A DNA stretch of 46,436 nt from Actinomycetota bacterium (GTDB lineage: Bacteria; Actinomycetota; Acidimicrobiia; Acidimicrobiales; JAMCQF01). Shown here piece by piece: positions 27,322 through 44,733 of the stretch; position 1 is the stretch's first letter; the number at the start of each line of letters is the position of its first letter. The DNA is taken from the NCBI GenBank assembly GCA_023379605.1, contig JAMCQF010000106.1:1-46436 (forward strand), written 5' to 3'. Under the pieces are notes generated by a model. That model saw nothing but the letters and a program-made list of their open reading frames with translations. It made no database searches and was not told the DNA's origin. Both the position numbers and the translations under genes were made by a program.

Positions 27322-27342
27322 GCCTTTGGCGGCCTGGGCGCG

Positions 27343-28500
27343 TCAGGATCCTTCTGCGGGCGCCATGGGATCAGCCTTGTCAGGCACCGGTCCGACCTTT
27401 TCGCTGGATGGCACGGTGGTGGCCACACCGCCAGGTGGTGGCCCAGCGGCAGCGGATGTGCCAAGCGGTGGTTGCTCTGTTGGCCGCATCACCCGCTTGC
27501 GGAACACCCAGTAGGACCAGCCCTGGTACAGCAGGACTATGGGAGCGAAGATACCTGCAACTATGGTCATAACGACCAGGGTGTAGTGAGCCGACGCTGT
27601 GTTGACTATCGTAAGGTCATAGGCTGGCGAGACGCTCGATACCATGACACGCGGGTACAGGTTCAACAGCAGCGTCCCTACCGTCAAGATGATGGCGAGC
27701 CCGGTGGAAAGGAAAGCCCAACCATCCAGGTGCTCGCTCACGAGCCACGCTGTTGAGATCACCGCCACGATGGCAAGAAGCGGGATGAATGATGGCACTA
27801 TGCCTGTGTCATGAGCCCCGATGGCATTGGAAAATGTCCACGACAGAAACGCTATCACAGCAGCTATTGCAACTGGTGCGATACGCCTAGCAGCGCTTCG
27901 AGCGCGCTCGCGTAGGTCTCCTGTAGTCCTAAGCGATACGAAAGTGGACCCATGCAGGCAAAACAGTGCCAATAGGGTTATCCCGCCCAGGATCGAGTAC
28001 GGGGTAAGCAGGTGCCAGAACCCGGCTACATAGCGGCCGTCCTTGCCTATCGGGACCCCAGCTACGAAGTCGGCAAATGCCACGCCCCAAAGTATCGACG
28101 GCAATAGGCTTCCCCAGAAGATCGCACGGTCCCATGAAGCCCGCCAGGCAGGGGCACGGTTGTGGTTGCGGAACTCGAAGGCGACCCCTCTTACTATAAG
28201 GGCGAGCAGGATCAAAAGGAGCGGAAGGTAAAAGCCCGAGAAGAGCAGGGCATACCAGCGGGGAAATGCAGCAAAGGTCGCCCCGCCCGCCACTATTAGC
28301 CACACCTCGTTGCCATCCCAGACCTGCCCAAAGGTGTTAAGCAGCACCCTACGATCGAGATCGTCCTTGGCAATGAACGGGAGCAGGATGCCCACTCCGA
28401 AGTCGAACCCTTCGAGGAAGAAGTACATGAGCCACATGACGCCTATGAGCATGAACCAGAAGACCTGGAGTGTCCCAGGATGGATTGCACCTACAACCAT
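27343..28500 (-). CDS. cydB: Cytochrome bd quinol oxidase subunit II
   Basis: LEGFDFGVG, WDGNEVWL, FAAFP, RGVAFEFR, YQGWSYWVFRKR. Confidence 0.96.
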   Translation of the reverse strand: MVVGAIHPGTLQVFWFMLIGVMWLMYFFLEGFDFGVGILLPFIAKDDLDRRVLLNTFGQVWDGNEVWLIVAGGATFAAFPRWYALLFSGFYLPLLLILLALIVRGVAFEFRNHNRAPAWRASWDRAIFWGSLLPSILWGVAFADFVAGVPIGKDGRYVAGFWHLLTPYSILGGITLLALFCLHGSTFVSLRTTGDLRERARSAARRIAPVAIAAVIAFLSWTFSNAIGAHDTGIVPSFIPLLAIVAVISTAWLVSEHLDGWAFLSTGLAIILTVGTLLLNLYPRVMVSSVSPAYDLTIVNTASAHYTLVVMTIVAGIFAPIVLLYQGWSYWVFRKRVMRPTEQPPLGTSAAAGPPPGGVATTVPSSEKVGPVPDKADPMAPAEGS

Positions 28501-28542
28501 GGCGATCATCCCTTCCCTTGAAGGTGTCCTTGGCAAGCGGTC

Positions 28543-29961
28543 TTAGTAGACAAGCTCTGGGACCTCTGTGCGCGTGCCTGTCTCGCTACCGGCCTCAGGC
28601 TCCTTGGGCTCATCTGGGGGAGTCTTGGCAGTTTTCACCATAAGGCCTATCTCTACTACAGCGAGTATGGAGTACACGCCGGCAAATACAGCAAAGCTTG
28701 TCCCGATATATCCTGTACCGATGTGTGATACAGCCTTTGAGGTCTTGAGCAGACCGTAGACCACCCAGGGTTGGCGACCCATCTCCGTGAAGATCCAGCC
28801 GAAGGTATTGGCGAGGAACGGCACCGGAATGCACCAGACCAGCGCCCAGAGGAACCAGCGCTTCTTCTCCAGGCGCTTTTTCTTGAGCAGCCACAGTCCC
28901 CATAGCCCTACTCCCAGCATCAAGAACCCAAGGCCCACCATGAGGCGGAAGGTCCAGTAGGTGACCCAGATGATCGGCTCGTAGTTGCCTGGGCCGTACT
29001 TCTTCACCTCTGCGGCCTGGACGTTGTCTATGCCGAGCACCTTTCCGTCCCAGGAGCGGTCTGCCAGCACCGAGAGCAGATGGGGCAGGCGGATCTGGAA
29101 GATGGGCTGGCCCGAAAGGTTGCCGATGGTTAGCAGCGAGAAGCTGGCACCGTCCTGGGTGTGGTAGAGAGCCTCGGCCGAGGCCATCTTCATTGGCTGC
29201 TCCTTGGTCATCAGCTGGGCCTGGCTGTCACCGAACCAGATAGTGCCCAGGATCGCGATGAACCCGACCACCAGTGCCACGCGCAACGAGCGGCCGAAGA
29301 TCTCCTGGGAGCGGTTGTGCAGGAGCTGCCATGCGCTCACGCCGAGGACGAAGAACGCACCCGTAGTGTAGGCTGCGAGGACCACGTGGGTGAACTGGCC
29401 GAGCAGGGTTGGGTTGGTCATGACCGCCCAGAAGTCCACCATGACAGCTTGGTGGGTCTTGGGGTCTATCTTGTAGCCCACAGGATGCTGCATCCAGGCG
29501 TTGGCAGAGAGGATGAAGTAGGCAGAGACCGTAGTGCCAAAGGCCACCAGCCATATGGAGATGAGGTGGATCCTGGGCGAGACACGCCCGCGCCCGAAGA
29601 TCCAAATTCCAATGAAGGTGGACTCCAAAAAGAATGCCAGCAGCCCTTCCATGGCCAGAGGTGGCCCGAAAATATTGCCCACAAAGGTTGAGAAGTGCGA
29701 CCAGTCCATGCCGAACTGGAATTCCTGGACGATGCCAGTGACCACGCCGATTGCAAAGTTGATGAGGAAGAGCTTTCCCCACCAGCGCGCCATGGAATCC
29801 CAGTGGGGCTTACCGCTGCGGTAAGCGGCTGTCTGCATGATCGCGACTATGAGAGCCAGGCCGATGGTGAGCGGGACGAAGAGGAAGTGGTAGATGGTGG
29901 TAACACCGAACTGCCACCGTGCCAGGGTCACCGGGGCTACGCCGGCAGCAAGCGGGAGCAT
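28543..29961 (-). CDS. cydA: Cytochrome bd quinol oxidase subunit I
   Basis: LARWQF...HFLFVP, GIVQEFQFG, EGLLAFFLES, QPMKMASAE, TEMGRQPW. Confidence 0.97.
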   Translation of the reverse strand: MLPLAAGVAPVTLARWQFGVTTIYHFLFVPLTIGLALIVAIMQTAAYRSGKPHWDSMARWWGKLFLINFAIGVVTGIVQEFQFGMDWSHFSTFVGNIFGPPLAMEGLLAFFLESTFIGIWIFGRGRVSPRIHLISIWLVAFGTTVSAYFILSANAWMQHPVGYKIDPKTHQAVMVDFWAVMTNPTLLGQFTHVVLAAYTTGAFFVLGVSAWQLLHNRSQEIFGRSLRVALVVGFIAILGTIWFGDSQAQLMTKEQPMKMASAEALYHTQDGASFSLLTIGNLSGQPIFQIRLPHLLSVLADRSWDGKVLGIDNVQAAEVKKYGPGNYEPIIWVTYWTFRLMVGLGFLMLGVGLWGLWLLKKKRLEKKRWFLWALVWCIPVPFLANTFGWIFTEMGRQPWVVYGLLKTSKAVSHIGTGYIGTSFAVFAGVYSILAVVEIGLMVKTAKTPPDEPKEPEAGSETGTRTEVPELVY

Positions 29962-29993: not shown

Positions 29994-30013
29994 CTAGGGT
30001 CCAAAGTCCCTAA
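29994..30013. promoter_or_regulatory. DosR/DevR-type binding site upstream of cydA
   Basis: CTAGGGTCCAAAGTCCCTAA matches the mycobacterial DosR consensus TTAGGGACTAAAGTCCCTAA at 17 of 20 positions; centre is 42.5 nt from the cydA ATG. Confidence 0.8.
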
Positions 30014-30399: not shown

Positions 30400-30466
30400 G
30401 GTTATGCCAGTTGTAGGCTCCCAGTCATGATGAGAGCAGGACAACTTGACTGAAGAGGACGTGGGC

Positions 30467-31330
30467 ATGGCTGGAGAAGTTGGTCGGCTGCCTACGTCCT
30501 CTTTGGCGTGCGGGGCCTGCGGAATTGAAGTTGACCAGCTGGCTCAGCTGGCTGTCGATTATTCCGATTCGCTGTATCGCTTTGCGCGCTCGCTTGTGCG
30601 GTCATCTGAGCAGGCCGAAGATCTGGTGCAGCAGACCTTTGAAAGGGCACTTGTCCACCGGGACCAGTTCAAGGGTGGCTCGGCGATCAGCTGGCTTAAG
30701 AAGATACTCCACAATCTCGTCATAGATTCAGCGCGCCATTCGAGCTTTGAAATGCCAGTTGAGGGCGAAGCGCTTGCTTCTCAAGTCGAGGCACACTGGA
30801 TGGATAGCTCCTATAGCGTGGATCCCCAGGTGGTACTCGAGCGAGCAGAGGCAAAAGACCGCCTTGAGGAAGCGCTGATCAGGGTTCCTTACGGCTATAG
30901 GGCGGTCGTGGTGCTCCATGACGAGGAGGGATTAACGCTCAAGGAGATAGCAGATCTCATGAGCCTTGGCCTTCCTGCTGTCAAGCAGCGATTGAGGAGA
31001 GGAAGGATGATGGTGGTTAGCGCACTTGCTGAAGGAGACGAGCGTAGAGAGGCGCTAGTTGATGTCCCTATGACATGCTGGTCTGCCAGGCATGAGGTTT
31101 CTGACTACATAGATGGAGACCTTGGCTCCAGCGAACGGCTTCGCTTGGAGGCTCATCTTGCGCAGTGCCCGACATGCCCACCACTGTACGCGGCCCTGGT
31201 TGGGGTCAAAGCAGAGCTCGGGCGGCTGAGGGATCCAGACAGCGTCATCCCGCCACAGATGGCTGGAAAGTTGGCAGAGAAGATAAGAGCTGAGGGAAGC
31301 TCAAGGTCGCAGCCAGCCGAGCACGGGTGA
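30467..31330 (+). CDS. ECF sigma factor with fused C-terminal zf-HC2 (ZAS-like) domain
   Basis: AEDLVQQTF, WLKKI..N..ID, region 4 LKEIA...VKQRLRRGR, then CWSARHEVSDYIDGDL...HLAQCPTC (HxxxCxxC). Confidence 0.88.
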   Translation: MAGEVGRLPTSSLACGACGIEVDQLAQLAVDYSDSLYRFARSLVRSSEQAEDLVQQTFERALVHRDQFKGGSAISWLKKILHNLVIDSARHSSFEMPVEGEALASQVEAHWMDSSYSVDPQVVLERAEAKDRLEEALIRVPYGYRAVVVLHDEEGLTLKEIADLMSLGLPAVKQRLRRGRMMVVSALAEGDERREALVDVPMTCWSARHEVSDYIDGDLGSSERLRLEAHLAQCPTCPPLYAALVGVKAELGRLRDPDSVIPPQMAGKLAEKIRAEGSSRSQPAEHG

Positions 31331-33077: not shown

Positions 33078-33773
33078 ATGCCAAGCGAAGATCCCCCTAT
33101 AACAGGTGGAGCAAGTTCAGATGATCCAGGAGACCTTGGACGGCGTGTGGCGGAGCGGAGGCGTGAGCTGGGGCTGAGCAGGGAGGAAGTTGCCCAAAGG
33201 GCAGGGATGGACCCTACTTATGTGGCATACTTAGAAGGCCAGCCCAGCGCCCGCCCAGAGCACTCGACGCTGTTTCGCTTGGCTGTGGCACTTGAGACTA
33301 CGGTGCCAAAGCTCCAGGGTGCAGGGACGGGTTGGCCACCGGGAGCTTCCGTCCTTCCAGCAGGCACTCCCGTCTTCGAGGTCATGACAGACCAGGAGTG
33401 CATGGGCCATATCCGTCTCGGAGGAATAGGACGGCTCGTGTTCGACGACGAGCGTGGCCCTGTGGCACTGCCTGTCAACTTCAGGATGCTCGGAGACGAC
33501 CTGGTGTTTCGCACAGGTGAGGGTTCGATCGCTGCTGGGATCAGAGCGGGGAAGAAGGTCAGCTTGGAGGTAGACCACCTAGATGATGCCCTAGGAGAGG
33601 GATGGAGCGTGCTCATCACAGGAAAGGCTTATGAGGTAACCGACCCCAAGGAGATAGGTCAAGTTAACGAGGTGGGCATAGAGCCATGGGCTGGAGGAGA
33701 TCGTCACGTCGTGGTTCGCTTGGTGCCAACACAGATCACAGGCCGAGAGATCCGTCGTAGGCTCCAAGCTTGA
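33078..33773 (+). CDS. XRE-family HTH fused to pyridoxamine 5'-phosphate oxidase-like (split-barrel flavin-binding) domain
   Basis: RRELGLSREEVAQRAGM...YLE HTH, then GIGRL...PVN..VFRT...EVD...GWSV...PW...ITGR. Confidence 0.88.
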   Translation: MPSEDPPITGGASSDDPGDLGRRVAERRRELGLSREEVAQRAGMDPTYVAYLEGQPSARPEHSTLFRLAVALETTVPKLQGAGTGWPPGASVLPAGTPVFEVMTDQECMGHIRLGGIGRLVFDDERGPVALPVNFRMLGDDLVFRTGEGSIAAGIRAGKKVSLEVDHLDDALGEGWSVLITGKAYEVTDPKEIGQVNEVGIEPWAGGDRHVVVRLVPTQITGREIRRRLQA

Positions 33774-33799: not shown

Positions 33800-34882
33800 T
33801 CAGGACCCTTTGGGTGGGGCGCGCTCTGGAGATCTCGCACCTTTGGCGGTCGGGTAGGACCGGTAGTAATCGCGCCAGACAAGCCGGTGGAGCGGTATGA
33901 GCCGAGGGAGATCCCGTATGCCAGGGATGAATGGCGCGAAGAGCAGGGCCAAAGAGCACACTGTCATGATCGCCAAGACCTCTATGTCGCCGTTGTTGGA
34001 GGTAGACATGGGTGGGATCTGGTACCACATCGTGTACAGCCATAGCCACGGCTGCCCAGGCCAGGATCCGGTCTCGTTCATCACGCCCCACTGAGACCCA
34101 GCCATGTTCTGTGCTGTGACGATCTTTCCCCAGTAGCTCGCGCCGTGCTGGGCTTTCCAGGAGTCCCCAATGAACAGGATCGGGTTGGTGTAGTTGGTTA
34201 GATAGAAAGAGGAGTGCTCAACGAGGGCTGTGTCCAACCCACCCGATCGTGCCATCGCCAAGAGGGCGCTCATCATCTCTGCGACAGGTCCGTAGCGAGC
34301 CTTGGGTACCACGAGCCGGCCTGAGGATACCCGGGCCTTTCCGAGCGCTCTTCCGTAGGCGGCATCCCATGCCATCTGCCTGTTGTGGCTCGCAGCCTTG
34401 TAGCGGTCGAGGGCAGCGGTGAGGGCCGGCTGGCCTGATACGGTGCTCAGTGGGTCGAGTATGAAGTCAGTTGCGGGGTTGATCGGGTCTGTGACACCGA
34501 TGGCATTTTGGATCGAGAACCCCCAGAGATTTTGCACAAAGCCGGACTGGTGGTTGTAGGGGGGGCCGTAGGTGGCGGAGTTGCTGGTGCCGTTGAGCTC
34601 AGATAGGGCTATCTCGGTGAACCCCTTTGGTTGGGCAGATGCCCATGCCTGGAGCGTGACCGGAGGGACATCAGGTGAGGAGAACAGCACTGCCAGCAGG
34701 ACCACCAGCACGGTCACCACCAAAAGGGCTATGGTCGCCTCTTTTAGGATGTCATAGCGCCGCTGCGGACCACGCCATGGAGCTGCCTCAGCCGCTCGGC
34801 GCCTTCTTTTCAGCTCGCGTGGGGCAGCTGCGTACTCCTGGCGGCTTGCAGTGCCGGCGGATGGCCCCGTTGGCGTGCTCAC
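33800..34882 (-). CDS. Membrane protein partner of the cytochrome b; resembles cytochrome b6 subunit IV (PetD) with a large extracytoplasmic insertion
   Basis: YDILKE + TM helix, about 200-aa hydrophilic insert, then QPWLWLYTMWYQIPP (PEWY-like position), TM ending LLFAPFIP; 4-nt overlap with the upstream cytochrome b. Confidence 0.6.
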   Translation of the reverse strand: MSTPTGPSAGTASRQEYAAAPRELKRRRRAAEAAPWRGPQRRYDILKEATIALLVVTVLVVLLAVLFSSPDVPPVTLQAWASAQPKGFTEIALSELNGTSNSATYGPPYNHQSGFVQNLWGFSIQNAIGVTDPINPATDFILDPLSTVSGQPALTAALDRYKAASHNRQMAWDAAYGRALGKARVSSGRLVVPKARYGPVAEMMSALLAMARSGGLDTALVEHSSFYLTNYTNPILFIGDSWKAQHGASYWGKIVTAQNMAGSQWGVMNETGSWPGQPWLWLYTMWYQIPPMSTSNNGDIEVLAIMTVCSLALLFAPFIPGIRDLPRLIPLHRLVWRDYYRSYPTAKGARSPERAPPKGS

Positions 34883-35883
34883 AGCACCTCAGAGCTCGGG
34901 GGGGCATATGGGCTGGACATCTCGGTTGTACCGGAGCTTGCTGGCTCATGTCCGACAAGGGTACCGGCCAGTGACATATCGCCAGGGATTCCCGCCGTGC
35001 TGGCAGCTGCCGGCTCATGGAGGGCCTCACTGGCAGGAAGGGAGTGCTCCTCAAGAGCGTCTATGGGGTGCACCACGCCACGCACGCGCACCATGAGGAT
35101 GTGCATAGCCACGATTGCCACAAGCACCAGCGGGACAAAGACTATATGGAGCATGAGCGCCTGACCGAAGTTCATTGTATTGAAGAACGCACCTATGCCC
35201 CCTCCGTTCATGGCATCTTTTGCCTCGAATGCTACCCACTGCGAATCGAAGTTGGTCTGGGAGAGATAGCCGGTGAAGGCCTCGAAAACCGACACGAGAA
35301 AGGCCAGGGCGCCCGTCATCCACGTAAGGGCTCTCCTGCCCCTCCAGGCTGCCATCCAGAACTTGCCCCAGAGGTGGATAGCCATGAAGCCCATGAAGCA
35401 CTCCACGCTCCAGAGATGCAACGAGTTCACAAAGTGCCCCACGGTGCTGGTGTGCCACCATACCGGTCCTTCGAGGGCCAGCACAAGGCCTGAGAGTATG
35501 GCCAGTACCAGCCCCGCCAGGGTGAGGACGCCGAAGACGTAGATCCACGATGCCACATAGGCTGGCTGGCTGTCTGGGAGCAGCTTGGAAGGTGGCAGGG
35601 CTTTTAGCCACATGCGCCTTAGAGCTGCAGTCCACAGCCCGGCCTCGCCCGCGCTGTCCTCAGTGGCATCTGCGGTTTCGCCCTGACTGGGCTGTAGCGG
35701 AAGCGGAGCTTGAGCTTGAGTCTCGTGGGATTTGCGCCTGGTATGTATGAAAGGGACGGTGAGCGCCGCTACGAACAGCACGAGCATAGCCACGATCACA
35801 AGCAGGTTCGCAAGCGATATGAGGATGAAGCCCCAGTGTATGTAGTGGTCTCTCGAGTTCAGCTGGACTATCGCTCCGAGCAC
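34879..35883 (-). CDS. Cytochrome b N-terminal (b6-like) di-heme membrane protein
   Basis: WIYVFG, SLHLWS...AIHLW, TWMTG, GYLSQ..FDSQW, LHIV...MHI give four heme-ligating His; start set at GTG 35883 (TAGCAT hexamer 7 nt upstream). Confidence 0.88.
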   Translation of the reverse strand: MLGAIVQLNSRDHYIHWGFILISLANLLVIVAMLVLFVAALTVPFIHTRRKSHETQAQAPLPLQPSQGETADATEDSAGEAGLWTAALRRMWLKALPPSKLLPDSQPAYVASWIYVFGVLTLAGLVLAILSGLVLALEGPVWWHTSTVGHFVNSLHLWSVECFMGFMAIHLWGKFWMAAWRGRRALTWMTGALAFLVSVFEAFTGYLSQTNFDSQWVAFEAKDAMNGGGIGAFFNTMNFGQALMLHIVFVPLVLVAIVAMHILMVRVRGVVHPIDALEEHSLPASEALHEPAAASTAGIPGDMSLAGTLVGHEPASSGTTEMSSPYAPPSSEVL

Positions 35884-35916
35884 GGAGGCGATGCTATCAA
35901 GCCGTAAGTGCTTGAA

Positions 35917-35936
35917 AAAGGGGCTAAAGGCCCGAA
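35917..35936. promoter_or_regulatory. DosR/DevR-type site upstream of the cytochrome b pair
   Basis: AAAGGGGCTAAAGGCCCGAA; core matches GGGACTAAAGTCCC at 12 of 14; centre 43.5 nt from GTG 35883. Confidence 0.7.
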
Positions 35937-36116
35937 TCGGTCCGAAACAGGTACCGATGGCCAAAGAGCACCGATGGCAGGGTCAGACCCACATGGCCCC
36001 TGACAGGGGCCGCCACGGCGGATGATTTTCCCACCACAAAGCGCGAATCATCACCTCAGATCTTCGGGCCATAGGCGTTTTGTGTCGCTCAAGCCACTCT
36101 GGCGGCTTGAGCTGGC

Positions 36117-36542
36117 TTAGTGCACCACAACCACCGGGCAGGTGGCATGGGCAGCGCAGTGCTGGCTCACGGAGCCGAGCAGCATGCCCTTGAAGCCCCC
36201 ATGGCCCTGGCTTCCCACCACCAGCAGGTCTGCGCCCTGCGCTGCTCCGAGCAGCGCAGGGACCGGATGGGATTCGATCACCCTCAGGCTCACCTCCATC
36301 TCCGGGGAGGGCCCGAGGGCCTCGGTAACCGTCTCTTTCAATGACTTCTCCGCCTCGGCCTCTGGGTCGAAGTGCTCCGGGACCGGTGAAAAGCCCCATG
36401 ACGCCGGAAGCTCCCAGGCGGTTATCACCTCCAGCGCCGCGCCGGTCAAGCTGGCTTGGCGTGCTGCCCAGCGAAGGGCGGCCTTTGACTGCTCCGAGCC
36501 GTCTACGCCCACTACGATACGACTGGCTTGGGACTGTGGCAC
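36117..36542 (-). CDS. Universal stress protein (single USP domain)
   Basis: RIVVGVDGS..SKAALRWAA, ADLLVVGSQGHGGFKGMLLGSVS..C..HA.CPVVVV; AAGGAG RBS before GTG 36542. Confidence 0.95.
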   Translation of the reverse strand: MPQSQASRIVVGVDGSEQSKAALRWAARQASLTGAALEVITAWELPASWGFSPVPEHFDPEAEAEKSLKETVTEALGPSPEMEVSLRVIESHPVPALLGAAQGADLLVVGSQGHGGFKGMLLGSVSQHCAAHATCPVVVVH

Positions 36543-36673
36543 TTCCTGCTCCTTTGGTAGTCGCTCCTGGTATTGACATCCTCCCCATGGCAGCGCGTTC
36601 GCGCCAACACACCATGGCTCAGCCTGGGGTGGCTTGACCACTTTCACGCTCAAGCCAAGCTACCAGGGCGAGC

Positions 36674-37469: not shown

Positions 37470-38781
37470 ATGGATACCAGCCAACCGAGCAAGCTGCACG
37501 CCATACTGCGCCCACCATGGGTCAACAGAACGCTCACGCTGGTGTGGTCTGCGCGGGTGTCTATGAGCGCAGGTCGGGCGCTGGCTGGGGTCATCGCTCC
37601 TTTGTACTTAGCTGAGCTTGGCTTCAGCGGGTTGCGGCTGGGGGAGATGTTCGTAGCGATAGCGCTCCTGTCGGCTTTGATGTCAGCGAGCGTGGGCATT
37701 CTCTCCGACCGGGTTGGACGAAAACCGTTCCTTATCATCTTCCCGATCCTTACCTCTGCTGCGGCAGTTGTCTTTGCCACCATGCACTCGATCCCGGTGC
37801 TCTTTGTGGCGGCGGCCGCGGGGAGCTTCGGGCGTGGCTCAGGAGCTGGAGCAGGCGCTGTAGGGCCTTACCAGCCTGCCGAATCGGCTCTGGTGACCGA
37901 GGTGACGCCGTCCTACTGGCGCAACGCGGCGTTCGGCCGACTCCAGTTCGGCTCCTCTCTTGGAGCCCTGGCTGGATCGCTGCTCGCCATCCTGGCTCAC
38001 AGCTCCCATGGAGCAAGCGCGCAGTCTGCGTTGGCTGCTTTCAGACTGGCCTTTCTAGCGACGGCCCTGGTGTCTTTGATCGCAGGGGTGCTTGCGGTGT
38101 GGATCTCTGAGCCGGTGCGCTCCTCTCGGCCATCACGGGCCAAGGGACGTCCCAGGTTGCCGGTCAAGTCACGCAGCCTGCTGCTTAGGCTGTGGGCTAC
38201 CAACTCTGTGAATGGCTTGGCGGTGGGGATGATCGGTCCGTTCCTCACGTACTGGTTCTACAGGCGCTTTGGGGCAGGTCCCGAGGAGATCGGCTTATTG
38301 TACGCTGCGGTCAATGCCGTAAGCATGAGCTCGACGCTCTCTGCTGCCGGGCTTGCCAGAAGGTGGGGACTGGTCAAAACCGTAGCCGTGGTAAGGGCGC
38401 TCACGGCCGGTTCTCATAGTTCCCATGGTGCTGGCTCCTACGTTCATCCTTGCCGGGGTCGCCTACATGCTTAGAATGGTGGTCCAGCGTGCGGGAATGC
38501 CGCTTAGGCAGTCCTATGTGGTGGCGATGGCAGATCCGCAGGAGAGGTCCTCGGTGGCAGCGCTTTCGAACGTGCCCAGCCAGGTCGCCATGGGGCTAAG
38601 CCCGCTTGCTGCCGGCTACTTGATAGACGAGGTCAGCTTGAGCCTGCCCTTCGAGATAGCTGGGGTCTTCCAGCTTCTAAACGGCGCCATGTACTGGTAT
38701 TTCTTCCGCAACATGCCCCCGGTGGAGGAGACTGAGGTAGTCGTAGCCCTCGGTGCTGACGAGCAGAGTGGCGCTGCCTGA
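37470..38781 (+). pseudogene. MFS transporter with one frameshift near 38410 (or a sequencing error)
   Basis: GILSDRVGRK motif A; removing one G from ggccGgttctc fuses ORF 37470-38474 to ORF 38425-38781 (ALTAVLIVPMVLAP...), giving a full-length MFS protein. Confidence 0.8.
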
Positions 38782-38922: not shown

Positions 38923-38941
38923 AAGGGACTTTCAGCCCTGG
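38922..38941. promoter_or_regulatory. DosR/DevR-type site upstream of the por operon
   Basis: AAAGGGACTTTCAGCCCTGG with a perfect GGGACT half-site. Confidence 0.65.
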
Positions 38942-39025: not shown

Positions 39026-39467
39026 GTGTTCCAGGTGCGCATTCATGGTCGCGGTGGCCAGGGAGTGGTTACCGCGGCAGAGCTGCTCTCAGTCGCAGCT
39101 TTCGAGCAGGGGCTCTATGCCCAGGCTTTCCCTGCTTCGGCTCGGAGCGCATGGGCGCTCCGGTGGCGGCATTCTGCCTGCCAGCGAGATCGCGACAAGG
39201 CTCCTTGGGCGAGCTATGCCCAACTCCGCGTTGCTCGGGGCCCTGTCTGGGCTAACCGGCATTATCTCCATCGATGCGCTCGGTTAGGCGCTGCGCAAGC
39301 GCTTTACTCTTGAGGTCGCGCAGGCGAACCTGCATGCAGCCAGGGATGGGTATGCTCAGGCGGTCGCTCGCCGCACTGAGCGCTCGGCTATGCAACCGGT
39401 GGTCGCATCCCTGGCTGGCGCAGGACCGGAATCTTTAGGAGCTGATGGGGAGCATAGCCATGCTTGA
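39026..39467 (+). pseudogene. porC: Pyruvate/2-oxoacid:ferredoxin oxidoreductase gamma subunit, disrupted
   Basis: [20 protein letters not shown]...QAFP; -1 frameshift at about 39133 ([11 protein letters not shown] continues in another frame); central part missing between AFC and LPASEIA; in-frame TAG at 39285-39287; tail ANLHAARDGY ends overlapping porA. Confidence 0.85.
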
Positions 39468-40713
39468 TCAGATCGAAGGCTCGCGAGCCGTCGCGGGCGC
39501 GGTGGCAGCTTGCAGGCCGGAGGTGATTTGCGCCTACCCGATCTCACCTCAGACCCACATCGTGGAGGACCTAAGCGTAGCGGTGAAGACCGGTGCTCTC
39601 GCGCCTTGCGAGTTCATCAACGTAGAGTCGGAGTTTGCCGCTATGTCGGTATCAATTGGAGCATCGGCAGCTGGGGCCCGCGCGTACACAGCAACAGCCA
39701 GCCAGGGCCTTTTGTACATGATCGAGGCGGTGTACAATGCTGCTGGTCTCGGGCTTCCCATCGTTATGACCTTGGCAAATCGCGCGATAGGGGCACCGAT
39801 CAATATCTGGAACGATCATAGCGATGCCATGGCCGTTCGGGACTCGGGATGGATTCAGCTCCATGCTGCGACCAATCAGGACGCGGTCGACTTGCACATC
39901 CAGGCCTTTAGGTTGGCAGAGGAGGTGTCGCTCCCGGTCATGGTGTGCATGGACGGCTATATCCTGACCCATGCAGTCGAGCGCATAGATCTTCCTTCTC
40001 AAGGGGAGGTAGATGCGTTCTTGCCTCCGTTCGTACCCAGGCAGATCCTTGATCCGTCAGAACCGGTCTCCATAGGAGCGATGGTTGGCCCGGACGCCTT
40101 CGCGGAAGTTCGGTACCTCGCCCATGCCAAGCAGCTCTTGGCGCTGGAGCGTATCCCCATTGTCGCCTCGGAGTTCAAAGAAGCATTCGGTCGTGGGTCT
40201 GGGGGCTTGGTGGACCCATACAAGCTAGATGGTGCGGAAACCTGCGTGGTTGCCATGGGCTCTGTCATAGGCACCATCAAAGACGCCATAGATGAGCTCT
40301 CTGATCGAGGTATTCCAATCGGCCTGCTCGGCATCACGGCGTTCCGTCCTTTTTCGATAGAGGCTGTGTCTGCCGCTTTGGAGGGAGTTGAGCGTGTCGT
40401 GGTCGTGGAGAAGGCCTTTGCGGTGGGGATAGGAGGGATCCTCTCGGCTGACGTAGCCACGGCACTGGGCCACAGGCCCATTCGTCGCTATGGGGTTGTG
40501 GCAGGGCTCGGAGGCCGGCCGATACCGAAAGCATCGCTTATCGGCCTTTTCGAGCAGGCCGTAGCAGATGAGCTTGAACCGCTCAGCTTTCTCGATCTGG
40601 AGAGGTCGGTGGTGGAGAGAGAGCTGGAGAGGATGAGGCTCGATCCAAGATCAGGTCCTGCTGCCGAGAATATGCTTGCAGACATAGGCATTGTTAGAGC
40701 AGGGCCGTTTTGA
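39460..40713 (+). CDS. porA: Pyruvate:ferredoxin oxidoreductase alpha subunit
   Basis: AYPISPQT, ESEFAAMS, TATASQG, NRAIGAPINIWNDHSD, DGYILTH, GLGGR. Confidence 0.93.
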   Translation: MLDQIEGSRAVAGAVAACRPEVICAYPISPQTHIVEDLSVAVKTGALAPCEFINVESEFAAMSVSIGASAAGARAYTATASQGLLYMIEAVYNAAGLGLPIVMTLANRAIGAPINIWNDHSDAMAVRDSGWIQLHAATNQDAVDLHIQAFRLAEEVSLPVMVCMDGYILTHAVERIDLPSQGEVDAFLPPFVPRQILDPSEPVSIGAMVGPDAFAEVRYLAHAKQLLALERIPIVASEFKEAFGRGSGGLVDPYKLDGAETCVVAMGSVIGTIKDAIDELSDRGIPIGLLGITAFRPFSIEAVSAALEGVERVVVVEKAFAVGIGGILSADVATALGHRPIRRYGVVAGLGGRPIPKASLIGLFEQAVADELEPLSFLDLERSVVERELERMRLDPRSGPAAENMLADIGIVRAGPF

Positions 40714-40855
40714 ACTTGGTGGTGCTTGCAGCGCTGACAGGGAAAGAACGCTTAAGTCGTTGTGGCTTGGAACCTTGCATTGGAGCTGGTGCTGCTTGCA
40801 GGGCTGGCGTTGCAGGAACCACTTGGAGGCAAAGATGGCCGGGAAGGAGAGATAG

Positions 40856-41869
40856 ATGACATATCGACCGGTCAAGTTCTACCAGACCGGGAGCTTCGCT
40901 GTAGGCAACCGGCTATTGGGCAGGGAGGGTGAGAAAGTTCAGGCAACCATAGAGCGGGCCAACTCTCTTACTCTCGGCCATAGAGCTTGCCAGGGCTGCG
41001 GTGAGGCGCTCGGTGCCCGCTACGTTCTCGATGCCGCCATGCGAGCAGCCCAAGGCAAGGTGATCGCCACCAACGCAACCGGGTGCCTGGAGGTATTCAC
41101 CACACCCTATCCTGAGACATCCTGGCAGATCCCGTGGCTCCATTCGGTCTTCGGTAACGCTGCTTCGGTTGCAACAGGTGTTGCGGCAGCGCTCAAGGCA
41201 AAAGGAAGAACCGACGTGCGTGTTGTCGCTCAGGCCGGTGACGGGGGTGCCGTCGACATCGGGCTTGCTTGCCTGTCGGGCATGTTGGAGCGCAACGACG
41301 ACGTGTTATTCGTCTGCTATGACAACGAGGCCTATATGAACACTGGCGTCCAGCGCTCCGCAGCAACCCCCCCCTGCGGCTCGCACGGCCACACCGAAGC
41401 GGTTGGAGCCGAGCCAGGCAACCCATTTGGCCAGGGCAAGAACCTCCCACTTATAGCTATGGCCCATGAGATTCCCTATGTGGCAACTGCTACGGTGGCC
41501 GACCTGGGTGATCTTGAGTACAAGGTCGAGCGGGCGATGTCGTTTCATGGGGCGCGCTACTTGCATGTCTTGGTGCCCTGCCCGCTCGGTTGGGGCTCCA
41601 AGCCGGGCGACACCATCGCTGTCGCTCGCCTGGCAAAGGAGTGCGGCCTGTTCCCAGTCATCGAGGCAACCCAAGGAGAGCTCACAGCAGTATCGCCAAT
41701 TCGTAAGCAGGTGCCGGTGCAGGAGTACCTAAGGCGGCAGAGCCGCTACGCACATATCTTCGAGCCCACTGTTCGCCGTGACATCATAGATCGCCTGCAG
41801 GCAATCGCGGATCGAAACATCCGTCGTTTCGGGCTGCTGGCCGACAATGAAGTGTCTACAGCGCTATAG
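40856..41869 (+). CDS. porB: Pyruvate:ferredoxin oxidoreductase beta subunit (TPP-binding)
   Basis: GHRACQGCG, NATGCLE, GDGG...YDNEAYMNTG.QRS, VPCPLGWG. Confidence 0.92.
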   Translation: MTYRPVKFYQTGSFAVGNRLLGREGEKVQATIERANSLTLGHRACQGCGEALGARYVLDAAMRAAQGKVIATNATGCLEVFTTPYPETSWQIPWLHSVFGNAASVATGVAAALKAKGRTDVRVVAQAGDGGAVDIGLACLSGMLERNDDVLFVCYDNEAYMNTGVQRSAATPPCGSHGHTEAVGAEPGNPFGQGKNLPLIAMAHEIPYVATATVADLGDLEYKVERAMSFHGARYLHVLVPCPLGWGSKPGDTIAVARLAKECGLFPVIEATQGELTAVSPIRKQVPVQEYLRRQSRYAHIFEPTVRRDIIDRLQAIADRNIRRFGLLADNEVSTAL

Positions 41870-43061: not shown

Positions 43062-43787
43062 TCAGGCCTGAGATTCCCCGGGCAAGCCAACTTGACCGGG
43101 TGGCTCTTCGAGGCTCTCTACAAGGTGGCGGGCTGCTGCGAGCAGCTCGCCCTCGCTTAGGGCTTTGGCATCCACGCGCTGATCTATGAGGATGCGCAGT
43201 GGCAGCTCCTGCAGCTCCTTTGTGATCCTCTCCCAAACCAGCTTGGCAGCGTCGGAGTGCCCATCTCCGTGGCCAAAGATGACCACGGTATCAGCACGTT
43301 TTAGGCCGTCGGCGATGGCGCGGTAGTAGGCGGGCTCCTCGGGTGCACGCTGACCCTTGTAATGGCCCTCCATGTGATGTAGATGGCGCAGGTGTCCCTC
43401 AGGATCGTAAGGGACTATAGTCCCTATATGCTCCGCGGCCGGCTCGAACTCATAGATCGTAGCGGAGTGGTGGTTAACGACCAACAGCAGGTGCAGGCCA
43501 ATGCTGGATCTTCTCGGTTCAACACTTAAGTCCCCGAGAAAGCGCCGCAGCTTGACGACCATATCCGTGGGGATATCACCGTGATGAGGGGGGCTGAACA
43601 CCTCGGTGCGGTCGTTTATGGTCACCCGGTAGCGGTCCTTGCTCTCGACGGCGACCTCCCCCATGGCCTCGAGCAGAGCCAGCACCTGTGGCCATTTGAT
43701 GTTCGCAGGGAGTGGGTGGCCCAGGAGCTTGTGCAAAGTGCGGCGTTGCTCGCTGTCGAGGTGGTGCTGATGGGCCTGCTCTGTCAT
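43062..43787 (-). CDS. Fusion of a HicA-like N-terminal domain and a baeRF/eRF1-domain-2-like C-terminal domain
   Basis: RRTLHKLLGHPLPANIKWPQVLALLEAMG...RYRVTIN....FSPPH....VVKLRRFL (HicA-like); LLVVNHHSATIY...HLHH....YYRAIADGL..ADTVVIFGHG (baeRF-like). Confidence 0.65.
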   Translation of the reverse strand: MTEQAHQHHLDSEQRRTLHKLLGHPLPANIKWPQVLALLEAMGEVAVESKDRYRVTINDRTEVFSPPHHGDIPTDMVVKLRRFLGDLSVEPRRSSIGLHLLLVVNHHSATIYEFEPAAEHIGTIVPYDPEGHLRHLHHMEGHYKGQRAPEEPAYYRAIADGLKRADTVVIFGHGDGHSDAAKLVWERITKELQELPLRILIDQRVDAKALSEGELLAAARHLVESLEEPPGQVGLPGESQA

Positions 43788-44622: not shown

Positions 44623-44642
44623 ATTGGGACCTTCGGCCCTGG
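44623..44642. promoter_or_regulatory. DosR/DevR-type site upstream of the Fe-S flavoprotein-ppsA unit
   Basis: ATTGGGACCTTCGGCCCTGG, core GGGAC-CTTC-GGCCC. Confidence 0.75.
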
Positions 44643-44733
44643 TTGAGGCGGCCCGAAGAGGCGAGGATATCAAAGCTGGGCGCGGCGAGCTAGCACATGG
44701 AGGGCTGGTAAATCTGGCAAGGAGGTGTCGGCT

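What the first reader, a model, noticed from the sequence alone, without database searches (positions are those of the whole stretch)
33800..35936. Orphan split cytochrome b module: b6-like chain plus subunit-IV-like partner with a large external insert, no Rieske or cytochrome c gene
Seen: the first gene keeps four heme His, with 13 residues between the first pair and 14 between the second (b6-type spacing), lacks the Cys that binds heme ci (WIYVFG instead of FYCLGG) and has an extra N-terminal TM. The overlapping second gene has a TM, a ~200-aa hydrophilic insert with no CxxCH, a QPWLWLY segment where PEWY would fall (no Glu) and an LLFAPFIP helix like PetD LVPFIE. Flanking genes are a USP and an HTH-flavoprotein. 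Known: actinobacterial bc complexes use a full-length QcrB in qcrCAB. Inference: a Rieske-independent, low-oxygen-induced quinone-linked transmembrane electron conduit in which the insert may dock a different redox partner. This is my best candidate for an undescribed system.
Basis: partly seen in the sequence, partly recalled or inferred. Interest (0 to 1): 0.82.

Follow-up and report, generated by a model that had tools for sequence, protein, structure and literature searches.

The report
Stand-alone split cytochrome b module
Two overlapping genes encode a two-heme membrane cytochrome b and a partner with a large outward-facing domain; the pair is widespread, never sits beside the usual iron-sulfur or cytochrome c partners, carries a dormancy-type control site, and its job is still unknown.

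Summary
On the minus strand, a b6-like diheme cytochrome b (34879-35883/35964) overlaps by 4 bases a 360-aa partner (33800-34882). The partner has 2 TM helices and a ~234-aa external loop, with no Pfam, NCBIfam or PDB sequence match.

The pair is a conserved unit: both genes were found in 81 of 81 loci, cytochrome b first. About 10 loci have them fused, and 651 fused proteins of 631 aa or more were found. QcrA-type Rieske genes lie nearby in 0 of 81 loci and cytochrome c in 1 of 81.

In fused relatives the partner's start (YDILKE plus TM1) aligns to the helix E start of solved long cytochromes b. The PEWY and helix F equivalence rests on motifs only; profile scores do not beat reversed controls.

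A DevR/OsdR-type palindrome lies upstream in 35 of 78 loci, at -50 in the window. Neighbours are dormancy-regulon types.

Every genome tested also has a canonical Rieske/cytochrome b pair elsewhere, so Rieske independence is not proven.

Verdict: a new, uncharacterised variant of the cytochrome b family, probably a non-bifurcating quinone-linked electron conduit expressed when respiration is limited. Its redox partner is unknown.

The parts
34879..35964 (-). Cytochrome b6-like diheme gene. The ORF runs from TTG 35964; the likely true start is GTG 35883 (334 aa). Layout: extra N-terminal TM, variable cytoplasmic linker, helices A-D.
   Evidence: PF13631 E 4e-9, 37.1 bits vs cut-off 27. 46-sequence alignment with invariant H183, H197, H273, H288, G145, G159. 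Start inferred. Best solved relatives are 6kls_B at 7.9e-12 and 1q90_B at 9.5e-9.
35770..35826 (-). Extra transmembrane helix (TM0), preceded by the invariant HYxHWGF segment.
   Evidence: Hydropathy peak 3.01 at residues 20-38 of the 334-aa protein. Y41, H43, S50, N53 (361-aa numbering) are invariant in 46 sequences. TM0 is absent from one fused subfamily.
35374..35418 (-). Helix B heme ligands, His-13-His.
   Evidence: Translation HLWSVECFMGFMAIH; both His invariant.
35101..35148 (-). Helix D heme ligands, His-14-His (b6-type spacing).
   Evidence: Translation HIVFVPLVLVAIVAMH; both His invariant. Aligned without gaps to b6 helix D.
35920..35933 (.). DevR/OsdR-type palindrome. Minus strand reads ttcGGGCCTTTAGCCCCttt. 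It has 1 mismatch to GGG[AC]C-N4-G[TG]CCC and lies about 50 nt upstream of GTG 35883.
   Evidence: The same box class is present upstream in 35 of 78 loci, at fixed offsets. The consensus was checked against passages of PMC5069765.
33800..34882 (-). Partner gene (360 aa). GTG start overlaps the cytochrome b stop by 4 bases. Candidate cytochrome b C-half.
   Evidence: ORF. No Pfam or NCBIfam hit and no PDB sequence hit at E<=10. 3772 homologues and 991 representatives. Always follows the cytochrome b gene; fused forms.
34739..34756 (-). YDILKE motif on the cytoplasmic side. It aligns to PYxxxK(D/E) at the start of helix E of long cytochromes b.
   Evidence: Translation. D44, K47, E48 conserved in at least 90% of sequences. 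HMMER alignments to 6kls_B and 2qjp_A.
34682..34738 (-). Partner TM1 (proposed helix E).
   Evidence: Hydropathy 3.12 at residues 49-67. Alignment continues into helix E of solved cytochromes b.
33980..34681 (-). External loop of 234 aa (residues 68-301), including the conserved ATYGPPYN motif. No cofactor-ligand motif.
   Evidence: Topology. 24 of 195 columns in residues 68-262 are at least 90% conserved. No conserved His, Cys or Met.
34013..34096 (-). Trp-rich segment SQWGVMNETGSWPGQPWLWLYTMWYQIP, the most conserved part of the partner. Candidate ef-loop/PEWY equivalent, not proven.
   Evidence: Translation. 10 of 28 columns at least 90% conserved; P275, W279, Y287 invariant. Weak hhalign match to KAPWYF, not above reversed controls.
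33923..33979 (-). Partner TM2, ending in PFIPG (candidate helix F).
   Evidence: Hydropathy 2.28 at residues 302-320. P317 and P320 invariant. Motif-level likeness to QcrB WPFLE only.
36117..36653 (-). Universal stress protein gene upstream on the same strand.
   Evidence: PF00582 E 1.1e-29. A USP lies near the module in 9 of 81 loci.
33078..33773 (+). HTH_31 + Pyridox_ox_2 (PNPOx-like) gene, convergent with the partner.
   Evidence: The same family lies near the module in 13 of 81 loci.

Best explanation
The locus encodes a stand-alone member of the cytochrome b superfamily, split here into two translationally coupled genes.

The first protein is a b6-like four-helix bundle that should hold hemes bL and bH. 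It has no heme cn. It carries an extra N-terminal helix.

The second protein supplies the C-half. A cytoplasmic YDxxKE segment and TM1 correspond to the start of helix E, the N-side quinone-pocket region of canonical cytochrome b. A ~200-aa conserved, cofactor-free external domain follows where the short ef loop normally is. Then come a Trp-rich segment and one more helix.

The module is not encoded with a Rieske protein or a cytochrome c. It is preceded by a DevR/OsdR-type operator, so it is most likely made when aerobic respiration is limited.

Inferred mechanism: it passes electrons one at a time across the membrane through the two b hemes, between the menaquinone pool and a second site, without Q-cycle bifurcation.

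Shown: family membership of the N-half, the obligate pairing and fusions, helix E correspondence, lack of linked Rieske or cytochrome c genes, and operator enrichment.

Inferred: heme binding, quinone use, direction of electron flow, hypoxic induction, and the role of the external domain.
For: - N-half: PF13631 scores above its cut-off. Four invariant heme His with 13/14 spacing and two invariant helix A Gly. b6-like C-terminus MVRxRGVVxPI aligned to MIRKQGISGPL.
- Unit: cytochrome b and partner found in 81 of 81 loci, same strand, cytochrome b first. 38 loci have a 4-base overlap and 10 are fused. 651 proteins of 631 aa or more hit the partner at E<=1e-10. All 120 listed carry only PF13631 or PF00033.
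- Helix E: the junction profile from 9 natural fusions hits long cytochromes b through helix E (6kls_B E 3.9e-6, 30.3 bits; Rhodobacter 2qjp_A 1.1e-3). b6 chains and QcrB, matched on helix D only, get 13 bits. Full fused profile alignments reach chain residue 266-268. With the partner N-part HMM alone, 4 of the top 7 non-family hits are subunit IV-like sequences.
- Topology follows the positive-inside rule.
- No linkage to usual partners: QcrA-type Rieske 0 of 81, DoxD-Rieske fusion 2 of 81, cytochrome c 1 of 81. Pfam on 149 neighbour ORFs of 27 loci gave 1 Rieske fusion and 0 cytochrome c.
- Operator: exact boxes at 0.417 per kb upstream, against 0.033 per kb for the rest and 0.062 per kb for other intergenic DNA. 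Present in 35 of 78 loci; offsets -64/-65 recur in 13 loci. An unguided 7-mer count recovers GTCCCTA.
- In the own genome the box also precedes HSP20, phosphoketolase, Zn-ADH, PNPOx and cydA.
- Neighbours: WS/DGAT 18, NarL-type regulator 18, GAF-HisKA_3 kinase 13, PNPOx 13, ADH 10, USP 9, each of 81 loci.
Against: - No expression, heme or quinone data. No RNA holder was listed.
- The partner has no significant sequence similarity to PF00032 or subunit IV. PF00032 hits 0 of 54 members, PDB gives 0 hits, and hhalign scores of 17-26 fall within the reversed controls of 14-25.
- The C-part HMM shows no enrichment for cytochrome b C-halves.
- The partner has 2 TM helices, not 3-4, and no acidic residue at the PEWY position.
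- All 10 module genomes hold Rieske genes. 6 of 6 checked hold a canonical Rieske/cytochrome b pair, so a shared Rieske protein is not excluded.
- The window's own box has a mismatch, and boxes across the window as a whole are not above chance (11 found vs 14.4 expected).
- 43 of 78 loci show no box with at most 1 mismatch.
- Loci come from related genomes, so enrichment statistics overstate independence.
Confidence: 0.55

Rival explanations
1. Alternative (stress or hypoxia) cytochrome b isoform. It assembles with the cell's canonical Rieske protein and cytochrome c, encoded elsewhere, and runs a normal or modified Q cycle.
For: Every module-bearing genome examined has Rieske genes (10 of 10). 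A canonical Rieske-cytochrome b pair is present in 5 of 5 tested genomes plus the window's own genome. The N-half keeps all heme ligands.
Against: The module is never linked to a Rieske gene: 0 of 81 loci, and none on the module's contig, or within 300 kb where they share one (G225), in 10 genomes. A branch of 4.88 substitutions per site separates it from QcrB and from short b6-like cytochromes of the phylum. Helices G and H are missing. The Qo motif is not recognisable. A ~200-aa domain sits where the Rieske head would approach; this last point is inference from the known architecture.
Confidence: 0.15
2. Diheme membrane anchor of a redox loop, working like NarI or like the B. subtilis SdhC-type anchor. 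Its catalytic partner is encoded elsewhere. The partner could be cytoplasmic, or it could be an external acceptor such as soluble Fe(III).
For: Two hemes across the membrane with conserved cytoplasmic segments: VRxRGVVxPI, WRGPxRRYDxxKE, RLIWRxYYR. The named isolates that carry the module (Aciditerrimonas ferrireducens, Ferrimicrobium acidiphilum, Ferrithrix thermotolerans) all grow by anaerobic Fe(III) reduction (tables of PMC8790237). The window's organism occurs in mine tailings and drainage metagenomes.
Against: No conserved neighbouring redox enzyme: the most frequent neighbour families reach only 18 of 81 loci. The family also occurs in soil, bog and fen Acidimicrobiaceae, Solirubrobacterales, Streptosporangiaceae and Ca. 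Dormiibacterota MAGs. No metal or heme ligand is conserved in the external domain.
Confidence: 0.15
3. The partner is not a cytochrome b C-half. It is an unrelated 2-TM ectodomain protein recruited to a b6-like cytochrome, for example for sensing, heme handling or cell-envelope work. In that case the helix E likeness is convergence or alignment drift.
For: The whole-partner profile finds nothing in PDB or Pfam. Profile-profile scores equal the reversed controls. Only 2 TM helices are present. The Trp-rich external loop superficially recalls heme-handling WWD loops; that resemblance is recalled, not tested.
Against: The junction profile gains about 17 bits over the helix D-only matches, exactly along helix E of solved cytochromes b, with Y-x-x-x-K-(D/E) aligned. 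Order and topology are those of cytochrome b. Subunit IV-like sequences are enriched among the top hits of the N-part HMM. No heme-handling family matched among 54 members at E<=1.
Confidence: 0.15

Closest known systems
Cytochrome b6 (PetB) with subunit IV (PetD) of b6f-type and Firmicute-type split complexes
   Same: Split into an N-half with four helices and a separate C-half gene directly downstream. His-13-His and His-14-His spacing. The C-terminal motif M(I/V)RxxG(I/V)xxP(L/I) is shared. Solved b6 chains are among the best PDB hits (1q90_B 9.5e-9).
   Different: No heme cn Cys: Val at that place. NCBIfam b6 model scores 34 bits against a cut-off of 325. The partner has 2 TM helices rather than 3, a ~200-aa external insert, no PF00032 match and no PEWY Glu. 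No Rieske or cytochrome f/c genes lie nearby. An extra N-terminal TM is present.
Long cytochrome b of bc1 complexes (for example Aquifex 6kls_B, Rhodobacter 2qjp_A) and actinobacterial QcrB
   Same: The fused relatives are single long proteins with the same domain order. Helix D, the linker and the helix E start align, with PYxxxK(D/E) matching RRYDILKE. The QcrB motifs FGPYVP, AQPDWY and WPFLE have colinear look-alikes YGPPYN, GQPW(L)W and PFIPG (motif level only).
   Different: NF050120 QcrB model scores 22.5 bits against a cut-off of 500. A long separate branch divides them. No helices G and H. The own genome has a normal qcrC-qcrA-qcrB cluster elsewhere. The module is not in a qcr operon.
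Cytochrome b groups of unknown role noted in surveys: 'subfamily H' (large proteins containing cyt b domains) and 'K' of Dibrova et al. 2017 (PMC5600118, section 8 read); the 'PDWF-FeS' clade without Rieske and the 45 unpaired N-terminal sequences of Kao and Hunte 2014 (PMC4122944, passages read)
   Same: These are precedents for cytochrome b homologues that lack a linked Rieske protein or a recognisable C-half, with function stated as unknown.
   Different: Whether this family is one of those groups could not be checked. Their figures and supplementary tables were not available. None of the passages read describes the partner, its external domain or a dormancy-type operator.
DevR(DosR)/OsdR dormancy regulons of Mycobacterium and Streptomyces
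   Same: The box fits the 16-nt palindromic OsdR consensus quoted in PMC5069765 (passages). USP, Zn-ADH, PNPOx and enoyl-CoA hydratase are listed as OsdR targets there. Alpha-crystallin, WS/DGAT and the GAF-HisKA_3 kinase/NarL-type regulator pair are recalled from the mycobacterial regulon.
   Different: No cytochrome b is listed among the OsdR targets in the passages read. The regulators here match only generic NarL/MadR models, below their cut-offs. Induction is not shown.

Membership tests
Cytochrome b/b6 N-terminal domain (PF13631 / PF00033) | Profile match above the curated cut-off | tested here: met
   PF13631 scores 37.1 bits vs 27. PF00033 scores 19.9 vs 27.2, which is below. PF13631 is listed for all 120 listed homologues.
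Cytochrome b/b6 N-terminal domain (PF13631 / PF00033) | Four axial His on helices B and D | tested here: met
   H183, H197, H273, H288 are invariant in 46 of 46 sequences. Translations.
Cytochrome b6 of b6f-type complexes | CxGG motif with the Cys that binds heme cn | tested here: not met
   Family yvfGv aligns to YCIGG of 1q90_B.
Cytochrome b6 of b6f-type complexes | NCBIfam PRK03735 score above cut-off | tested here: not met
   34 bits vs 325.
Rieske/cytochrome b complex (bc1, b6f, qcrCAB) | Encoded with a Rieske iron-sulfur protein (and usually a cytochrome c or f) | tested here: not met
   QcrA-type 0 of 81 loci and cytochrome c 1 of 81 within +-8 kb. Only 3 of 1149 ORFs carry a CxH..CxxH motif. 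No Rieske gene lies on the module's contig, or within 300 kb where they share one (G225), in 10 genomes.
Actinobacterial QcrB (NF050120) | Model score above cut-off; clusters with QcrB | tested here: not met
   22.5 bits vs 500. Separated by a branch of 4.88 substitutions per site, support 100/100.
Cytochrome b C-terminal half / subunit IV (PF00032) | Profile match to PF00032 | tested here: not met
   0 of 54 partner sequences at E<=1. Note that the own genome's genuine QcrB also gives no PF00032 match, and Kao and Hunte report the same for actinobacterial QcrB (PMC4122944 passages).
Cytochrome b C-terminal half / subunit IV (PF00032) | Profile-profile similarity above controls | tested here: not met
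   hhalign scores 26.2 and 17.4, against reversed controls of 13.8-24.6. The positive control scores 69.4.
Cytochrome b C-terminal half / subunit IV (PF00032) | Helix E follows helix D, with the conserved PYxxxK(D/E) start | tested here: met
   The junction profile of natural fusions aligns through helix E of 6kls_B (30.3 bits, E 3.9e-6) and of Rhodobacter cytochrome b. D44, K47, E48 are at least 90% conserved.
Cytochrome b C-terminal half / subunit IV (PF00032) | Qo motif (PEWY and variants, Trp most conserved), then helix F | tested here: inconclusive
   An invariant W279 lies in GQPW(L)W, followed by a TM ending in PFIPG. There is no significant alignment.
Cytochrome b C-terminal half / subunit IV (PF00032) | Three (subunit IV) or four (long cyt b) helices after helix D | tested here: not met
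   Two hydropathy peaks only.
Cytochrome b C-terminal half / subunit IV (PF00032) | Fold superposes on helices E-G against the N-half | not testable with these tools
The Atlas holds no model.
DevR/DosR/OsdR-type regulon | Palindromic operator GGG(A/C)C-N4-G(T/G)CCC in the promoter region | tested here: met
   35 of 78 loci have a box with at most 1 mismatch. Exact boxes are 6.7-fold over other intergenic DNA. Offsets are fixed. The window's box has 1 mismatch, at -50.
DevR/DosR/OsdR-type regulon | Induction by hypoxia, NO or CO through the cognate two-component system | not testable with these tools
   No RNA holder was found. A GAF-HisKA_3 kinase with an adjacent NarL-type regulator exists in the own genome.

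The most novel reading that the evidence does not exclude
The module is a Rieske-free and cytochrome c-free terminal quinol oxidoreductase of Gram-positive Acidimicrobiia and their relatives, switched on by a dormancy-type regulator when oxygen runs out. Menaquinol would be oxidised at the b6-like core. Electrons would leave on the outer face, under the ~200-aa cap, to an external acceptor such as soluble Fe(III) in acid waters or humic quinones in bogs. That would give these bacteria a minimal two-heme route for anaerobic iron respiration, whose enzymes are unknown.
Probability: 0.1. Interest if true: 0.85.

Novelty: new variant of a known kind. Interest (0 to 1): 0.62.

Why it matters
Cytochrome b is normally read as a marker of Rieske/cytochrome b complexes and Q-cycle energy conservation. 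Here is a large, conserved family: 991 representatives at the 50% identity level for the partner, and hundreds of fused forms. It keeps the diheme core and the helix E start, replaces the ef loop by a 200-aa external domain, loses helices G and H, and is never encoded with Rieske or cytochrome c genes.

If it works alone, it is a new way of using the cytochrome b scaffold. Genome-based respiratory predictions that count it as 'complex III' would then be wrong; UniProt names one Ferrimicrobium member a bc1 subunit.

The dormancy-type operator makes a concrete hypothesis testable in culturable hosts (Ferrimicrobium, Ferrithrix, Aciditerrimonas): what keeps the quinone pool and membrane potential going when oxygen is gone, and possibly how acidophilic actinobacteria reduce Fe(III).

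Tried and rejected
- **Structure tools.** The Atlas had no model for the partner or for homologue P0031. It listed only unannotated look-alike clusters, one auto-named 'Cytochrome B6'. So there was no fold test and no binding test.
- **Partner sequence searches.** The whole-partner profile against PDB gave 0 hits at E<=10. Pfam on 54 members gave nothing relevant.
- **hhalign of partner against cytochrome b C-halves.** The apparent colinear matches (E 0.0014-0.0016) were rejected as evidence once reversed controls scored as high.
- **C-part HMM.** No enrichment.
- **Acyl-CoA dehydrogenase as a conserved neighbour.** The first count of 27 loci was an artefact. My greedy ORF caller picked antisense ORFs over the module. 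The recount by tblastn gives 10 of 81. The idea of an acyl-CoA:menaquinone anchor was dropped.
- **Eight long 'partner' ORFs.** L073, L074, L077, L081, L060, L039, L011 and L031 are out-of-frame N-extensions, not fusions.
- **Third external heme on H43 and H171.** Weak, since TM0 is absent from a fused subfamily and H171 is Gln in two of its members.
- **Mutual information on 131 fused sequences (Neff 45).** Top pairs are dominated by variable linkers. Only a faint cd-loop/external-domain signal appeared (6 of the top 60 against 2.0 expected). Not used as evidence.
- **Sequencing runs.** No RNA holder was listed. In the one metatranscriptome laid, only 24-47-nt pieces of diverged relatives matched. 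DNA contigs of other runs confirm the stretch.
- **Plasmids.** No match.
- **Promoter and terminator consensus scan.** 0 sites.
- **Literature searches for a description of this family**. None was found. One search (cytochrome b + Rieske + Acidimicrobiia) returned 0 papers. Dibrova et al. 2013 is not held.
- **Pfam on neighbours.** Run for 149 of the 357 ORFs within 3 kb (27 loci). The other 208 were covered only by the motif scan and tblastn.


Full report
**What is there**

The finding covers two minus-strand ORFs. The first runs 34879-35964 and is 361 aa from a TTG. The second runs 33800-34882 and is 360 aa from a GTG that overlaps the first gene's stop by 4 bases.

The first ORF matches Pfam Cytochrom_B_N_2 above its cut-off (37.1 vs 27 bits) and PF00033 below its cut-off. 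The best NCBIfam hits are far below their cut-offs: ExtP 37 vs 290, b6 34 vs 325, QcrB 22.5 vs 500.

Homologues start at the position of an in-frame GTG at 35883, and the closest one is 335 aa. The real product is therefore probably 334 aa.

The partner has no Pfam or NCBIfam match.

The flanks are a USP at 36117-36653 (-) and an HTH_31+Pyridox_ox_2 protein at 33078-33773 (+).

The wider window holds:
- cydABDC at 23631-29961
- an ECF sigma/anti-sigma fusion
- a dihydrolipoyl dehydrogenase
- an MFS gene
- pyruvate:ferredoxin oxidoreductase genes
- a GltD-like flavoprotein

**The cytochrome b half**

In 46 aligned homologues the four heme His are invariant, with 13 and 14 residues between them. 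Two helix A Gly residues 14 apart, the TGY motif of helix C, and the post-helix D segment VRxRGVVxPI are also invariant or nearly so (translations).

A profile of the family finds solved cytochromes b only distantly: 6kls_B at 7.9e-12, Chlamydomonas b6 1q90_B at 9.5e-9, and mycobacterial QcrB at about 3e-5. In the b6 alignment the heme cn Cys is Val.

The extra N-terminal helix is conserved, with invariant Y41 and H43 just before it and polar S50 and N53 inside it.

In a tree with 14 QcrB and 15 short b6-like cytochromes of the same phylum, the family lies across a branch of 4.88 substitutions per site with 100/100 support. One QcrB row was mis-trimmed by me. Rows from unpublished genomes G001, G018 and G048 are among the controls.

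The own genome carries a normal qcrC-qcrA-qcrB cluster on contig C50, and its QcrB has QPDWY.

**The partner**

It has two hydropathy peaks, at residues 49-67 and 302-320. Basic residues are dense before the first peak (11 of 48) and after the second (9 of 41), and sparse in the 234-aa loop (13). This fits an N-in, loop-out, C-in topology.

The most conserved parts are:
- WRGPxRRYDILKE before TM1
- ATYGPPYN early in the loop
- the Trp-rich QWGVMNETGSWPGQPWLWLYTMWYQIPP
- PFIPGxRxxPR after TM2

The loop is constrained: 24 of its first 195 columns are at least 90% conserved. No His, Cys or Met is conserved above 76% apart from the start Met, and there is no CxxCH.

**One unit, often one gene**

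The partner has 3772 relatives at E<=1e-3 among the 8000 candidates scored, all 120 listed without a Pfam domain. It has 991 representatives at the 50% level.

A scan of one genome per species found 389 relatives. The best 80 are mostly Acidimicrobiales and Acidimicrobiaceae, including Aciditerrimonas ferrireducens at 78% identity, Ferrimicrobium and Ferrithrix. Conexibacteraceae, Solirubrobacterales and Ca. Dormiibacterota, a separate phylum, also appear.

tblastn of representatives against these 80 loci plus the window (+-8 kb) finds both genes in 81 of 81. They always share a strand, cytochrome b first. 38 loci have the 4-base overlap, 10 are read as one frame, and 15 could not be resolved by my heuristic.

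Nine clear fusions were inspected. Four keep the extra helix and five lack it.

Among longer database proteins, 651 of 631-2000 aa hit the partner at E<=1e-10. All 120 listed carry PF13631 or PF00033 and no other domain. The fused forms without TM0 sit nearest the outgroup in the tree, which hints that the split form is derived. There is a long-branch caveat.

Distribution is patchy: 10 of 401 sampled genomes of the phylum carry it (this includes unpublished G088). No plasmid carries it.

**Is the partner the C-half of cytochrome b?**

Direct tests were negative:
- PF00032 hits 0 of 54 members.
- PDB gives 0 hits at E<=10.
- hhalign against 30 subunit IV-like regions and against QcrB C-halves scored 26.2 and 17.4. 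These are no better than reversed controls (13.8-24.6). The positive control scored 69.4.

One test was positive. I built a profile of only the junction of nine natural fusions: helix D, linker, YDILKE and TM1. Long cytochromes b then outrank b6. Aquifex 6kls_B scores 30.3 bits (E 3.9e-6), aligned through 'fhPymtlKEgayvmw'. Rhodobacter 2qjp_A scores 22.5 bits (1.1e-3), aligned through 'fwPYfiiKDvfalavv'. Chains matched on helix D alone get 13 bits. The full fused profile likewise aligns to residue 266-268 of Rhodobacter and Paracoccus cytochrome b.

With an HMM of the partner's residues 33-72 alone, 4 of the first 7 non-family hits are subunit IV-like sequences, with E between 0.3 and 1. The database held 45 positives, 45 reversed positives and 1236 neighbourhood ORFs.

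That K-(D/E) pair belongs to the N-side quinone site in bc1 complexes; this point is recalled, not tested here.

For the Trp-rich segment and TM2 there is only colinear motif likeness to QcrB (FGPYVP / AQPDWY / WPFLE against YGPPYN / GQPW(L)W / PFIPG). The HMM shows no enrichment.

Kao and Hunte report that even genuine actinobacterial QcrB C-halves escape the profile HMM, and that the Qo Trp is the most conserved residue (passages of PMC4122944). The own QcrB also gives no PF00032 match. A negative sequence test is therefore weak evidence against.

The fold test could not be run.

**No Rieske or cytochrome c linkage, but no proof of independence**

Within +-8 kb of the module:
- QcrA-type Rieske: 0 of 81 loci
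- DoxD-Rieske fusion: 2 of 81 (L046, L073)
- cytochrome c: 1 of 81 (L032)

Pfam on 149 neighbour ORFs from 27 loci gave that one Rieske fusion and no cytochrome c. A motif scan of 1149 ORFs gave 3 with CxH..CxxH and 3 with CxxCH.

All 10 module-bearing genomes of the phylum sample hold Rieske-domain genes. Nine never have one on the module's contig; in G225, a single-contig genome, the nearest lies over 300 kb away. Five of five tested, plus the own genome, have one canonical adjacent Rieske-cytochrome b pair. A borrowed Rieske protein cannot be excluded.

**Regulation and context**

I searched for the DosR core, at first from memory. I then checked it against the OsdR paper, whose 16-nt consensus AGGGCCGATCGGCCCT is said to conform to the M. 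tuberculosis site (passages of PMC5069765).

Upstream regions were anchored on the tblastn-projected start (-300..+10) in 78 loci:

| Region | Exact GGG[AC]C-N4-G[TG]CCC boxes | Density per kb |
|---|---|---|
| Module upstream (23,955 nt) | 10 | 0.417 |
| Rest of the loci | 36 | 0.033 |
| Other intergenic DNA | 8 | 0.062 |

35 of 78 loci have a box with at most 1 mismatch. Offsets recur: -64/-65 in 13 loci, -96 in 3, -137 in 3. An unguided 7-mer count independently recovers GTCCCTA and TCCCTAA (15 observed vs 0.8 expected).

The loci come from related genomes, so these ratios overstate independence.

The window's box (ttcGGGCCTTTAGCCCCttt, 35933-35920) has one mismatch and lies about 50 nt before GTG 35883. 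Across the whole window the boxes are not above chance (11 found vs 14.4 expected). Several are promoter-proximal, however:
- 36 nt before cydA
- about 98 nt before the ORF that leads the PFOR cluster
- 99 nt before the GltD-like gene (exact match)

Genome-wide there are 25 exact boxes. 6 are intergenic and 4 have a target ORF within 200 nt; two of those four are in this window. Other targets of exact or 1-mismatch boxes include HSP20/alpha-crystallin, phosphoketolase (two boxes), a Zn-ADH, a PNPOx-like protein next to the GAF-HisKA_3 kinase and NarL-type regulator, and an NDH-2-like flavoprotein.

Around the module in other genomes the recurrent neighbours, each of 81 loci, are:

| Neighbour family | Loci |
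|---|---|
| WS/DGAT | 18 |
| NarL-type regulator | 18 |
| AMP-binding enzyme | 15 |
| GAF-HisKA_3 kinase | 13 |
| PNPOx-like | 13 |
| Acyl-CoA dehydrogenase | 10 |
| Zn-ADH | 10 |
| USP | 9 |

None is constant, so no operon partner exists.

USP, Zn-ADH, PNPOx and enoyl-CoA hydratase are listed OsdR targets. Alpha-crystallin and triacylglycerol synthase as DosR targets are recalled.

**Habitat**

Near-identical DNA stands in mine tailings, mine drainage and sediment metagenomes of six studies, one of which may be the source. Contigs of other runs confirm the stretch.

**Reading**

The best-supported account is a stand-alone cytochrome b-family module, made when respiration is limited. It moves electrons singly through two b hemes between the menaquinone pool and another site. 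Its direction and its partner are unknown.

Three rivals remain open:
- a stress isoform that uses the canonical Rieske protein and cytochrome c
- a NarI-like anchor for an enzyme or external acceptor encoded elsewhere
- a partner unrelated to cytochrome b

The boldest reading not excluded is a minimal quinol:Fe(III) or extracellular-acceptor reductase. The three named isolates that carry the module all grow by anaerobic Fe(III) reduction (tables of PMC8790237). The family's presence in many non-acidophilic soil lineages argues against iron specificity.

**Novelty**

Databases name the first protein 'cytochrome b N-terminal domain-containing protein' or, wrongly as far as I can see, 'bc1 complex cytochrome b subunit'. 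They name the partner 'hypothetical'.

Seven literature searches found no description. [quoted passage not shown] These may include this family. Their figures and supplements were not available to me.

Noticed in passing
window 23631-29961 and 29997-30010: A cytochrome bd oxidase cluster: cydA 28543-29961, cydB 27343-28536, and two CydDC-like ABC genes at 23631-27321, all on the minus strand. A DevR/OsdR-like box (GGGTCCAAAGTCCC) lies 36 nt upstream of cydA.
   Followed up: partly
window 38925-38938, 39445-41869, 43411-43424, 44626-44639, 44725-46359: Pyruvate:ferredoxin oxidoreductase genes and a GltD-like Fer4_20+Pyr_redox_2 gene are each preceded at about -98 by a box (1 mismatch and exact, respectively). 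An exact palindrome GGGACTATAGTCCC at 43411 has no clear target. Two of the genome's four promoter-proximal exact boxes lie in this window.
   Followed up: partly
window 30446-31330: A single ORF joins ECF sigma regions 2 and 4 to a zf-HC2 anti-sigma zinc finger.
   Followed up: no
window 37470-38781: The MFS transporter is read as two overlapping ORFs (334 aa and 118 aa, both PF07690). This may be a frameshift or an assembly error.
   Followed up: no
G000:C5:3333-3764, C117:803-3160, C92:16625-17647, C174:212-757: Elsewhere in the same genome the box precedes an HSP20/alpha-crystallin gene (exact, 67 nt), a phosphoketolase (two boxes), a Zn-ADH, and a PNPOx-like gene beside the GAF-HisKA_3 kinase and NarL-type regulator. 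This looks like a dormancy-type regulon in an acid-mine Acidimicrobiales MAG.
   Followed up: partly
L073:4532-5872 and L046: Two loci carry, near the module, a protein that fuses DoxD/DoxX membrane domains to a Rieske [2Fe-2S] domain.
   Followed up: no
run X22 on window 34070-35550: Metatranscriptome contigs of 490 and 1045 nt match only short conserved pieces of both genes, with diverged sequence between. One contig touches both genes. They look like transcripts of a relative's homologous pair.
   Followed up: no
L024:7042-8966 and L024:10006-11640; G135 contigs C8 and C16: Some genomes carry two copies of the module. In L024 a split copy and a fused copy without TM0 lie 1 kb apart.
   Followed up: no
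P0325 (477 aa), P0250 (575 aa): Two partner relatives carry extra C-terminal sequence. One has a patatin-like domain; the other has 220 aa with no Pfam match. They may be read-through gene calls.
   Followed up: no
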